Of a stretch of DNA of 32,000 nucleotides, positions 28,354 through 29,439 are shown in pieces; positions within the stretch are counted from its first letter, which is position 1; every line of letters begins with the position of its first letter. A model generated the notes under the pieces. It ran no database searches. It was not told the origin of the DNA and saw only the letters and a list, made by a program, of their open reading frames with translations. The stretch comes from Methanothermobacter sp. (lineage in GTDB: Archaea > Methanobacteriota > Methanobacteria > Methanobacteriales > Methanothermobacteraceae). The DNA is taken from positions 50,154 to 82,153 of the forward strand of contig NZ_JASFYG010000001.1 in NCBI RefSeq assembly GCF_030055435.1. Direction: 5' to 3'. The translations under genes and the position numbers were made by a program.

Positions 28354-29439
28354 TTAAAGGTGGTGGCTGTTTCTCCTCATGGTCTCAGCCCTCTCCCTGT
28401 AACCTCTGATACCTCCGCTATCCTCCTGTAGGTTGAAGAACACCGAGTGTATGACCTCACCTGCATGTGTCAGGGCCGAGCCCACAAGACCCTCGGCAGT
28501 GTACCTGTGGTCTATCCCGTAGCCGGGGGATGGGTAACGGTGTTCCTCTGCGTTCATGATCCTCTCAATGAAGCCATCGGGGTCCACAGGGTCGTATTTT
28601 ACATCATCATGGAGCATGGCCTCGATTGCATAGCTCTTTATGATCTTATCATGGAGTTTCCTGTAGGCTGAACTTCTTGATACAAGTTCAAATCCTGCAA
28701 TTCTACCGTTGATTGCAACAAGCACTCCGTTCTGCTCTTTAAGCGGTTTGAATGGTTTTTTGAATTCCTCCAGTGTCTTTCTCTTCTTTCTGTAGGCATC
28801 TGCCATTGCACCTGTTTTTGAGGTTGAGCCGGCCCTCCTGTGGAGCCTGTTAACCTCATCCCATACGCTGCTCTGGCGTGAGCAGTACGCCGTCAGTAAC
28901 TCTTCCTGGTTCCTGATATTGATCTCCCTGATATCCTCAAAGGTGTCACGTATGACATGCTCATCCTCAGGGGCATCATCTATTTCAGCGCTTCTACCAA
29001 TGTTCTCAAGGTTCTCTGTCACGGTCCTTGTCTTGGTAACCCTTACGTTGAGTGCAGCCACCCTTTCAGGGTCCCTGAACTCCTTTGAGGTGTAGGACCA
29101 TCTGCCCTGCTCCACGCAGCTTACAGGTATCATGGTTTCTGACTTCTCAGGCAACAGAACTGTGACGTTGGCCACACGGTTCTGCTTGGCACCCTCCAGT
29201 TCCTCCCCGTCAATTATGAGTACGGGTTCATCAGCCCGGTTAACTGCAAGTACCGTGGGTACTGAGCCATATTCGTCCACCTCACCTATACTTATGAGGT
29301 CCTTGCTCATGGCATCTCTCAGTGTAAGGTAGTTCTGGCTCCCCTCAGGCGCCCTCACCGGGATGACCTCCATCTGACCTGAAACCTGGGGTTTGAGGAA
29401 CTCCAGGCTATCAAGACAGCTCTTGACTATCTCATTCAA
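28354..29439 (-). CDS. GAKQNR-motif protein (ARPP-1/DUF6569-like, assignment from memory)
   Basis: The N-terminal domain reads MEVIPV...[79 protein letters not shown]. This matches my memory of the ARPP-1 family pattern (YLTL.EA...G...V.E....G.V..L.V.N....PVLLLDGEEL.GAKQNR..N....). TTG 29439 lies 4 nt after AGAGGTGA (29451-29444); the track start TTG 29454 overlaps that SD. Confidence 0.75.
   Translation of the reverse strand: [361 protein letters not shown]

What the first reader, a model, noticed from the sequence alone, without database searches (positions are those of the whole stretch)
28354..29439. GAKQNR-motif protein (ARPP-1/DUF6569-like) embedded between surface CobN-like genes
The N-terminal 120 aa contain the string [41 protein letters not shown]. 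I recall this as the hallmark of a widespread uncharacterised family that Pfam and the Aravind lab named ARPP-1. It was described there as associated with ADP-ribosylglycohydrolase and rhodanese-phosphatase domains in predicted nucleotide-derivative or conflict systems. No ARG or rhodanese-phosphatase gene is nearby here; the neighbours are exported CobN-like proteins. The protein has no signal peptide, so it is presumably cytoplasmic. It is a domain of unknown biochemistry in an unusual context.
Basis: partly seen in the sequence, partly recalled or inferred. Interest (0 to 1): 0.6.

Follow-up and report, generated by a model that had tools for sequence, protein, structure and literature searches.

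The report
Partner-less ARPP-1 gene in Methanothermobacter
This gene encodes an intact member of ARPP-1, a published family of unknown biochemistry, and here it stands alone in a heat-loving methanogen whose genome lacks every published partner gene, so it is a correct but fairly ordinary identification.

Summary
The minus-strand ORF 28354-29439 (361 aa) carries the quoted motif verbatim. It matches Pfam ARPP-1 (PF20208) end to end (E 8e-92).

- **Organism and frequency.** The organism is a Methanothermobacter. The gene is single-copy, and the family occurs in 166 of 301 related genomes sampled.
- **CobN neighbours.** The CobN-like flanks are genus-level synteny only. Long AT-rich spacers, a conserved promoter of its own and separate RNA-library contigs in related strains indicate a monocistronic gene.
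- **Missing partners.** ARG, HIRAN, WYL, Macro, DUF4326 and polysaccharide-deacetylase domains were not found anywhere in this genome.
- **State of the gene.** All invariant residues are kept (Cys108, Glu110, Arg88 and others). dN/dS is about 0.2. The model is confident (pLDDT 90) and resembles only other ARPP models, with no solved structure.
- **Upstream gene.** The 279-aa upstream gene is a genus-restricted orphan.
- **Likely function (inferred).** It is probably an autonomous cysteine-dependent enzyme acting on a ribose or deoxyribose moiety.
- **One lead.** A Csa3-like CARF regulator lies within 10 kb of ARPP-1 in five genera.

This scan has noted ARPP-1 before on other DNA, paired with HIRAN, WYL, CARF or a kinase-helicase.

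The parts
28354..29439 (-). ARPP-1 family protein gene, 361 aa, TTG start. The beta-barrel insert lies at about residues 59-126 and carries Lys85, Gln86, Asn87, Arg88, Cys108, Glu110, Arg113 and Trp114. A lineage-specific acidic insertion spans residues 147-186.
   Evidence: PF20208 at E 8.2e-92, full length. Invariant columns from a 46-sequence alignment, all present here. AF2 model with pLDDT 90.2. dN/dS 0.17-0.22.
29440..29706 (-). The gene's own upstream region. It holds an A-run plus TTTATATT box at 29516-29509, a 5' leader of about 53 nt, and the ribosome-binding site GAGGTGAT just before the start.
   Evidence: The promoter block is conserved between two Methanothermobacter subclades whose upstream regions are otherwise unalignable. 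The RNA-library contig of related strains ends at 29492, about 24 nt downstream of the box.
28207..28342 (.). A 61-bp tandem repeat (2.2 copies) in the 3' flank of the ARPP-1 gene. Each unit begins with a T-rich stretch. This is a strain-level duplication.
   Evidence: TRF score 265, 98% matches. It is unique in the genome. Contigs of two related-strain runs (X1, X2) skip 60 bases here, so they carry one copy fewer (joint 28282>28343).
29707..30546 (-). Upstream neighbour 'c9', an all-helical orphan protein of about 279 aa found only in Methanothermobacter. It is not shown to work with ARPP-1.
   Evidence: No Pfam match at E up to 10. Found in 5 of 9 genus genomes and none of 52 other Methanobacteriales; broken in G008. 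An exhaustive HMMER search found only its own cluster plus one repeat-inflated false hit. dN/dS 0.08-0.18. It forms a separate RNA-library contig. The AF2 model is unusable, pLDDT 41.
23601..28061 (-). Downstream neighbour: an exported, membrane-anchored CobN-like protein of 1486 aa. It is not part of the ARPP-1 unit.
   Evidence: PF02514 at E 2.7e-230 plus CarboxypepD_reg. A 292-bp AT-rich spacer separates it from ARPP-1. The RNA-library contig is separate and ends at 28172. It sits next to ARPP-1 only in Methanothermobacter.
30762..32000 (-). Second CobN-like paralogue, C-terminal part, running off the window. It is 30-43% identical to the other copy's orthologues. It is not part of the ARPP-1 unit.
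   Evidence: PF02514 at E 1.2e-64. Present at this position only in this genome and G001.
22056..22658 (+). Csa3-like CARF-wHTH regulator, 5.7 kb from ARPP-1 and convergent with it. It is a candidate regulator by comparative linkage only.
   Evidence: PADLOC CARF3 at E 1.6e-98 and CasR at 8e-56. Pfam HFX_2341_N, Cas_APE2256 and HTH domains. Orthologues lie within 10 kb of ARPP-1 in five genera.

Best explanation
Window 28354-29439 (minus strand) is an intact, transcribed, cytoplasmic member of the ARPP-1 family (PF20208) in a Methanothermobacter genome.

Shown:
- It is a single-copy gene with its own promoter.
- It belongs to a partner-less ARPP-1 clade shared with the sister thermophilic family.
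- It is under purifying selection.
- It has no functional tie to the CobN-like surface-protein genes beside it.
- The genome encodes none of the partners published for the family.

Inferred:
- The protein works on its own as an enzyme.
- Its inserted beta-barrel presents the invariant Cys108, together with Glu110, Arg88, Arg113, Trp114 and the Lys85-Gln86-Asn87 loop, to a sugar carbon. The most likely target is the ribose or deoxyribose of a nucleotide-derived molecule or of damaged or modified nucleic acid.
- It uses thiol chemistry, either covalent capture or catalysis.
- It acts as a dispensable stress, damage or virus-response factor rather than in core metabolism.
For: - Family membership: Pfam E 8.2e-92 over the full profile. 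All 25 invariant columns of a 46-sequence alignment are retained. The AF2 model has pLDDT 90.2 and pTM 0.88. It matches ARPP clusters of AlphaFold DB at TM 0.7-0.8, including a HIRAN-ARPP fusion.
- Autonomy: spacers of 267 and 292 bp, and a conserved TATA block. RNA-library contigs of related strains cover CobN, ARPP-1 and c9 separately, with a gap at 29493-29597 and different depths of 12-14 against 50-79.
- Missing partners: ARG, HIRAN, WYL, Macro, DUF4326 and Polysacc_deac_1 were not found in the 99.7%-complete genome.
- Maintained gene: dN/dS 0.17-0.22.
- Dispensable gene: decayed in G005 and not found in G003; found in 166 of 301 genomes sampled.
- Clade: Methanothermobacter groups with family f3 at 100/99 support. 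The ARPPs that have a HIRAN gene directly upstream all fall in one separate clade at 100/99.
- Enzyme and sugar idea: the authors of the family proposed it from the conserved Cys and Gln and from the contexts (PMC9503650).
- Sensor regulators: elsewhere the family sits beside WYL, MerR and receiver domains. Some of these loci also hold restriction-modification genes.
Against: - No biochemical datum exists for any family member, and no solved structure resembles it. The chemistry is pure inference.
- Cys108 could be structural.
- The expression evidence comes from assembled contigs of RNA libraries of strains about 93% identical. These contigs have no direction and could include DNA carry-over.
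- The gene matches no model in PADLOC.
- The immediate neighbourhood is not an obvious defence island.
- With no ARG, Macro or ADP-ribosyltransferase-linked context here, an ADP-ribose substrate is less likely in this organism than in the published systems.
Confidence: 0.6

Rival explanations
1. ARPP-1 is a target gene of the neighbouring Csa3-like CARF-wHTH regulator. A nucleotide signal sensed by the CARF domain would switch ARPP-1 on, in the way WYL regulators are paired with ARPP in bacteria. This concerns regulation and is compatible with the best explanation.
For: - The CARF orthologue lies close to ARPP-1 in five genera: 0.25 kb away head-to-head in G020; 1.5-1.7 kb away and divergent from an ARPP-containing gene string in G013, G029, G019, G042 and G031; 9 kb away in G027; and 5.6-5.8 kb away in every Methanothermobacter genome that has ARPP-1, including the decayed copy in G005.
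- Linked cases occur in all three archaeal partner-less ARPP clades.
- An earlier scan note (e1-3615622) reports a CARF-wHTH/ARPP-1 pair on other DNA.
- ARPP commonly sits next to ligand-sensing regulators (PMC9503650).
Against: - All linked cases come from one order, so inherited gene order may explain them. Small membrane-protein genes (DUF4064, DUF2085) travel in the same block.
- In this window the two genes are convergent, with a 4.5-kb CobN gene and an ATPase gene between them.
- The CARF gene is far better conserved (96-98% against 61-65%).
- It is present in genomes without ARPP-1 (G003, G009, G043, G046).
- It is unlinked in G011, G012, G021, G035 and G038.
- I found no shared operator between the two upstream regions.
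- An earlier follow-up (e1-2558305) judged another neighbour of this regulator a chance neighbour.
Confidence: 0.2
2. The four co-directional genes (CobN-like, c9, ARPP-1, CobN-like) form one cell-surface module in which ARPP-1 serves the exported CobN-like proteins.
For: All four genes lie on the same strand within 8.4 kb. ARPP-1 sits next to the 1486-aa CobN-like gene in every Methanothermobacter genome that has it.
Against: - No CobN-like gene lies near ARPP-1 in any of the 15 loci from other genera.
- The second CobN copy occurs at this position only in this genome and G001; c9 occurs in only 5 of 9 genus genomes.
- Intergenic spacers are 146-292 bp, and ARPP-1 has its own conserved promoter.
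- RNA-library contigs break between the genes.
- ARPP-1 has no export signal, whereas the CobN-like proteins are exported.
- Evolutionary rates differ: dN/dS 0.2 against 0.09.
Confidence: 0.04
3. ARPP-1 here is a non-catalytic ligand-binding or adaptor protein, for example a sensor of a nucleotide or sugar. The conserved residues would form a binding pocket and not an active site.
For: No catalytic activity is known for the family. Trp, Arg, Gln and Asn are typical sugar- or nucleotide-binding residues. The weak fold resemblances are to small-molecule-binding alpha+beta folds such as NTF2-like and UTRA-like, at Z 3-4.
Against: An invariant Cys-x-Glu, plus invariant Arg, across archaea and many bacterial phyla at about 35% overall identity is more typical of catalysis. 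As a lone protein with no effector domain or partner in this genome, a pure sensor would have nothing to signal to.
Confidence: 0.12
4. The gene is a functionless leftover of a former HIRAN-ARPP or ARG-centred system that lost its partners.
For: Partners are absent genome-wide. The gene is decayed or missing in two of nine genus genomes. It diverges faster than most neighbours.
Against: dN/dS is 0.17-0.22 even across dS of about 1.3. All invariant residues are kept. The model is confident. Orthologues are represented in RNA libraries. The partner-less clade is old and shared by two families, and it is separate from the HIRAN-linked clade.
Confidence: 0.04

Closest known systems
ARPP domain of ARG-centred NAD+/ADP-ribose conflict systems (Iyer, Burroughs, Anantharaman, Aravind 2022, Viruses 14:1977, PMC9503650; Pfam PF20208 ARPP-1)
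   Same: Same protein family over its full length. It has the same invariant Cys and Gln set. The predicted architecture agrees: a beta-sheet core with an inserted beta-barrel carrying the conserved residues.
   Different: No ARG gene anywhere in the genome. No rhodanese-phosphatase, TY-chaperone, Macro/NADAR or nuclease gene next to it. Here it is a lone gene with its own promoter.
HIRAN-ARPP two-gene neighbourhood (same paper; seen here in other Methanobacteriales)
   Same: Same family and same archaeal order. I saw a 116-129-aa HIRAN gene directly upstream of ARPP-1 in seven loci, and a HIRAN-ARPP fusion in AlphaFold DB.
   Different: The window's genome has no HIRAN domain. Its ARPP-1 lies in a different, well-supported clade from the HIRAN-linked ones.
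WYL-regulator plus ARPP pairs (same paper)
   Same: A single ARPP gene under a dedicated ligand-sensing regulator. I confirmed this in two bacterial contigs. The CARF-wHTH linkage in Methanobacteriales may be the archaeal counterpart.
   Different: No WYL domain in this genome. The CARF gene is 5.7 kb away and convergent, and regulation has not been shown.
SRAP domain proteins (HMCES/YedK), proposed by the family's authors as a mechanistic analogy
   Same: The resemblance is in the idea only: a conserved cysteine that could bond covalently to a sugar aldehyde. The genome has no SRAP gene, so the niche is open.
   Different: Unrelated fold and sequence. SRAP uses the N-terminal Cys2 with its free amine, whereas ARPP's Cys108 is internal, so the same thiazolidine chemistry is impossible.

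Membership tests
ARPP-1 (Pfam PF20208 / DUF6569) | Full-length match to the family HMM above the gathering score | tested here: met
   E 8.2e-92, 308 bits against a cut-off of 27, profile 2-297 of 297. A six-frame search of the genome gives the same single locus.
ARPP-1 (Pfam PF20208 / DUF6569) | [quoted passage not shown] | tested here: met
   Cys108, Gln189, Gln236, Glu110, Arg88, Arg113, Trp114 and the rest of the 25 invariant columns are present.
ARPP-1 (Pfam PF20208 / DUF6569) | Predicted fold: duplicated beta-meander core with a beta-barrel inserted in the first repeat, carrying the conserved residues | tested here: met
   AF2 pLDDT 90.2. The strands at 62-122 carry the motif, between sheet strands 18-53 and 238-336. 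TM 0.7-0.8 to ARPP clusters of AlphaFold DB. I could not inspect coordinates, so the topology is read from secondary structure only.
ARG-centred ARPP system | ADP-ribosylglycohydrolase gene in the neighbourhood | tested here: not met
   PF03747 was not found in the whole genome, while it was found in 7 of 14 control genomes.
ARG-centred ARPP system | Coupled phosphatase (rhodanese-phosphatase superfamily or substitute) | tested here: not met
   No such domain within about 6 kb. DUF4326 is absent. Rhodanese domains occur only on contigs C4 and C9.
HIRAN-ARPP pair | HIRAN-domain gene adjacent to ARPP | tested here: not met
   PF08797 was not found in the genome at E up to 0.1. The upstream gene is an unrelated orphan.
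WYL-ARPP pair | WYL transcription-factor gene adjacent to ARPP | tested here: not met
   PF13280 was not found in the genome.
Exported ARPP plus aminosugar deacetylase pair | Signal peptide on ARPP and an adjacent PF01522 gene | tested here: not met
   No hydrophobic N-terminus. PF01522 was not found in the genome.
Anti-phage defence system (PADLOC catalogue) | Match to a catalogued defence protein model | tested here: not met
   No PADLOC model matches ARPP-1 or c9 at E up to 0.01.

The most novel reading that the evidence does not exclude
In Methanobacteriales, ARPP-1 is a self-sufficient, one-protein response to sugar-aldehyde lesions or modified nucleic-acid ends. It is switched on by the orphan Csa3-like CARF-wHTH regulator. 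This would link CARF nucleotide signalling, outside CRISPR, to the ARPP family. It would also show that ARPP needs no ARG, HIRAN or phosphatase partner to act.
Probability: 0.12. Interest if true: 0.65.

Novelty: new member of a known kind. Interest (0 to 1): 0.3.

Why it matters
ARPP-1 is a widespread family with an invariant cysteine and no known activity or structure. Everything said about it rests on gene neighbourhoods. A copy from a cultivable, genetically tractable thermophile has practical value. It is thermostable, it models with high confidence, and its genome lacks all published partners. That makes it a clean subject for a first biochemical and structural study. It would also show whether the protein acts alone. 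As a genome feature it is otherwise ordinary: close relatives are already labelled ARPP-1 in public databases, and the CobN neighbours carry no message.

Tried and rejected
- **Solved-structure relatives.** A profile search of PDB sequences found nothing at E up to 10. Foldseek against PDB gave no hit below E 1e-3. The exhaustive VIA-align search gave a best Z of 4.3, on small NTF2/cystatin-like sheets and SH3-like barrels. No fold assignment is possible.
- **The upstream orphan c9 as a disguised partner** (for example a divergent all-helical ARG). No Pfam hit at E up to 10. The ESM Atlas gave nothing. Exhaustive HMMER found only its own cluster plus a 1110-aa Ig-repeat protein, whose score comes from eleven copies of one short motif, so I rejected that hit. 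The AF2 model has pLDDT 41 and is unusable.
- **A shared operator between the ARPP-1 and CARF upstream regions.** Phylogenetic footprints show each region's own promoter, and a conserved inverted repeat (GTTTTCC...GGAAAAC) in the CARF leader. I could not find a common site. AT-rich sequence makes matching by eye unreliable, so I did not pursue it.
- **Other library searches.** NCBIfam and PADLOC gave no model for ARPP-1. Rfam found nothing in the window.
- **Literature.** Searches for ARPP-1 were swamped by the unrelated eukaryotic ARPP-16/19/21. Only PMC9503650 proved relevant. I found no experimental paper on the family in the library, and one follow-up search failed on a syntax error and was not repeated.

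Full report
**Observation.** The minus strand carries an ORF at 28354..29454. It is a TTG five bases after GAGGTGAT, and it aligns with the ATG start of the Delta-H-type orthologues. It gives a 361-aa protein. The quoted string is present verbatim at residues 74-114. Pfam PF20208 (ARPP-1) matches at E 8.2e-92 over profile positions 2-297 of 297. NCBIfam has no model. Sources call homologues 'ARPP-1 family domain-containing protein' or 'DUF6569 family protein', so the two names refer to one family.

**Organism and distribution.** The closest proteins come from Methanothermobacter: 94-85% identity, and 61% to strain Delta H. The genome is 1.67 Mb, 99.7% complete, and holds one copy.
- Among 61 close relatives, 44 have a match over the Pfam cut-off.
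- In a sample of 301 genomes of the phylum, all of them Methanobacteriales, 166 have one, in 18 of 30 genera.
- Within the genus, seven of nine genomes have an intact gene, G005 has a remnant with five stops, and G003 has none.

The gene is therefore common but dispensable.

**The gene as a unit.**
- The spacers are 267 bp upstream and 292 bp downstream, and both are AT-rich.
- An A-run plus TTTATATT box at 29516-29509, with about 20 bases after it, is conserved between two Methanothermobacter subclades. Their upstream regions are otherwise unalignable, because one subclade has the orphan gene c9 there and the other does not.
- Four RNA libraries hold this locus from strains about 93% identical. 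Two of them (X1, X2) are labelled as a single organism.
- In X1 and X2 the assembled contigs cover CobN (ending at 28172), ARPP-1 (28182-29492) and c9 (29598/29633-30613) separately. Depths are 12-14 for ARPP-1 against 50-79 for the flanks.
- The ARPP-1 contig ends about 24 nt downstream of the TATA box, which suits an archaeal start site.
- Caveats: these are contigs, they have no direction, they come from relatives, and DNA carry-over cannot be excluded.
- dN/dS is 0.17-0.22, including across a synonymous distance of about 1.3. It is 0.09 for CobN and 0.08-0.18 for c9.
- There is no signal peptide or membrane segment.

**Structure.**
- An AlphaFold2 model built on 46 sequences has mean pLDDT 90.2 and pTM 0.88.
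- Strands at about 62-122 carry nearly all of the N-terminal invariant residues: Gly78, Glu79, Arg88, Asn91, Pro105, Ser107, Cys108, Glu110, Arg113 and Trp114, plus the nearly invariant Lys85, Gln86 and Asn87.
- Further invariant positions are Gln189, Trp193, Gln236, Ser269 and Tyr270. All are present here.
- Residues 147-186 are a lineage-specific acidic insertion of low confidence.
- AlphaFold DB clusters return only ARPP proteins (TM 0.7-0.8), among them a HIRAN-ARPP fusion.
- No solved structure is related.

**Neighbours.**
- Downstream lies a 1486-aa exported, anchored CobN-like protein. Upstream lie the orphan c9 and a second CobN-like paralogue.
- I fetched 17-kb regions around ARPP-1 from 20 loci of relatives and clustered their ORFs. 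CobN-like genes sit next to ARPP-1 only in Methanothermobacter. The second copy occurs only in this genome and G001.
- c9 occurs in 5 of 9 genus genomes, is broken in G008, and is absent from 52 other Methanobacteriales. It has no relatives in an exhaustive search and no usable model.
- The idea of a four-gene surface module, raised in another first-stage note on this window, is therefore not supported.

**Published partners.** The family was described by Iyer, Burroughs, Anantharaman and Aravind (2022; PMC9503650). They found it as an accessory of ARG plus phosphatase systems, and in two-gene neighbourhoods with HIRAN, with WYL regulators, or with an exported deacetylase. Whole-genome six-frame searches found none of ARG, HIRAN, WYL, Macro, DUF4326 or Polysacc_deac_1 here. 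Rhodanese domains exist only on other contigs. In other Methanobacteriales I did see the HIRAN gene directly upstream of ARPP-1 in seven loci. In two genomes a NAMPT gene lies between two ARPP copies.

**Phylogeny.** A maximum-likelihood tree of 50 proteins puts the Methanothermobacter proteins with those of family f3 at 100/99 support. The proteins with a HIRAN gene directly upstream all fall in one separate clade at 100/99, which also holds a second copy from G047 and the first copies from G025 and G044 that have no HIRAN gene directly upstream. Bacterial sequences lie between the archaeal groups. The window's gene thus belongs to an old partner-less lineage and is not a recent orphan.

**A lead: the CARF regulator.**
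- The gene at 22056-22658 is a Csa3-like CARF-wHTH regulator, followed by an archaeal ATPase gene.
- Its orthologues lie close to ARPP-1 in five genera. The distance is 0.25 kb head-to-head in G020. It is 1.5-1.7 kb, divergent from an ARPP-containing gene string, in G013, G029, G019, G042 and G031. It is 9 kb in G027, and 5.6-5.8 kb in all Methanothermobacter genomes.
- Against a functional link: all cases come from one order, and small membrane-protein genes share the block. The regulator also occurs without ARPP-1, and it is unlinked in five genomes. Here the two genes are convergent with two genes between them. I found no shared operator.
- I rate a regulatory link at about 0.2.

**Wider family.** Eight look-ups of homologues on metagenomic and genomic contigs showed several kinds of neighbour:
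- WYL regulators, in two loci
- a MerR-like regulator
- a receiver-domain gene
- a weak YbjN-like gene
- small unknown genes
- the DUF4064-small protein-ARPP string of Methanobacterium type

Restriction-modification or toxin-antitoxin genes were nearby in three of these loci. The common picture is a single ARPP gene beside a sensor or regulator.

**Mechanism.**
- Shown: family membership, integrity, purifying selection, likely independent transcription, and the absence of partners.
- Inferred: the protein acts alone as an enzyme, with an invariant Cys-x-Glu and Arg/Trp/Gln/Asn residues on the barrel. It most likely works on the ribose or deoxyribose of a nucleotide derivative, or of damaged or modified nucleic acid. 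This follows the authors' argument from contexts, and it fits the DNA-end (HIRAN) and regulator associations.
- An ADP-ribose substrate is less compelling in this genome, which lacks ARG and Macro.
- SRAP, the authors' analogy, is absent from the genome and is chemically different, because it uses an N-terminal cysteine.
- I give the family and gene-structure statements about 0.95. I give the specific chemistry about 0.3.

**Verdict.** It is a new member of a known, uncharacterised family, in a context that is less unusual than it looked. Interest is modest (0.3). Its main value is as a clean, thermostable, partner-free representative for a first biochemical study. This scan has met ARPP-1 before on other DNA, with HIRAN, WYL, CARF or kinase-helicase partners.

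Noticed in passing
window 22056-23571 (+): A Csa3-like CARF-wHTH regulator overlaps by 14 nt with a 308-aa archaeal AAA/STAND-type ATPase gene. I saw no cas gene or repeat array in the parts of the window I examined. The regulator is 96-98% identical across the genus, while the ATPase is only 63-84% identical.
   Followed up: partly
window 28207-28342: A 61-bp tandem repeat (2.2 copies, 98% identical) lies between the ARPP-1 stop and the CobN-like promoter. 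It is unique in the genome, and contigs of two related-strain runs (X1, X2) carry one copy fewer.
   Followed up: yes
L037 (G025) 7619-11324 and L038 (G044) 8207-12008: In two related genomes the gene order is ARPP-1, nicotinamide phosphoribosyltransferase (NAMPT_N + NAPRTase), HIRAN, then a second ARPP-1. This is a direct NAD-salvage link for the HIRAN-ARPP clade.
   Followed up: partly
L021 (G042), L026 (G029), L041 (metagenome): A stand-alone receiver-domain (Response_reg) gene of 127-132 aa lies directly upstream of ARPP-1 in three loci from two different ARPP clades. The 2022 paper's list of ARPP neighbourhoods does not include this pairing.
   Followed up: no
many relatives, e.g. G021:C1:1223406-1223807, G038:C1:314080-314481: An ORF family of about 230 aa in many Methanobacteriales matches only the N-terminal part (profile positions about 15-150) of the ARPP-1 model, at E 1e-6 to 1e-10. 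It may be a short paralogue of the barrel region. It was not found in the window's own genome.
   Followed up: no
window 21985-22020, upstream of the CARF gene: The CARF gene's leader holds a genus-conserved inverted repeat, GTTTTCC(C) ... (G)GGAAAAC, with about 20 bases between the arms. It may be an autoregulatory site or a hairpin.
   Followed up: no
window 23601-28061 and 30762-32000 (-): Two CobN/Mg-chelatase-like paralogues both end in a Ser/Gly/Thr-rich linker and a hydrophobic anchor. The complete one also has a signal-like N-terminus and a CarboxypepD_reg domain. The topology looks extracellular, which is odd for a chelatase family.
   Followed up: no
window 19211-19774 (-): A 187-aa protein carries pseudomurein-binding repeats (PMBR). 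It lies next to zinc-ribbon/PsbP-like, DUF4064 and DUF2085 small membrane-protein genes. These travel with the CARF/ARPP block in other genera.
   Followed up: no
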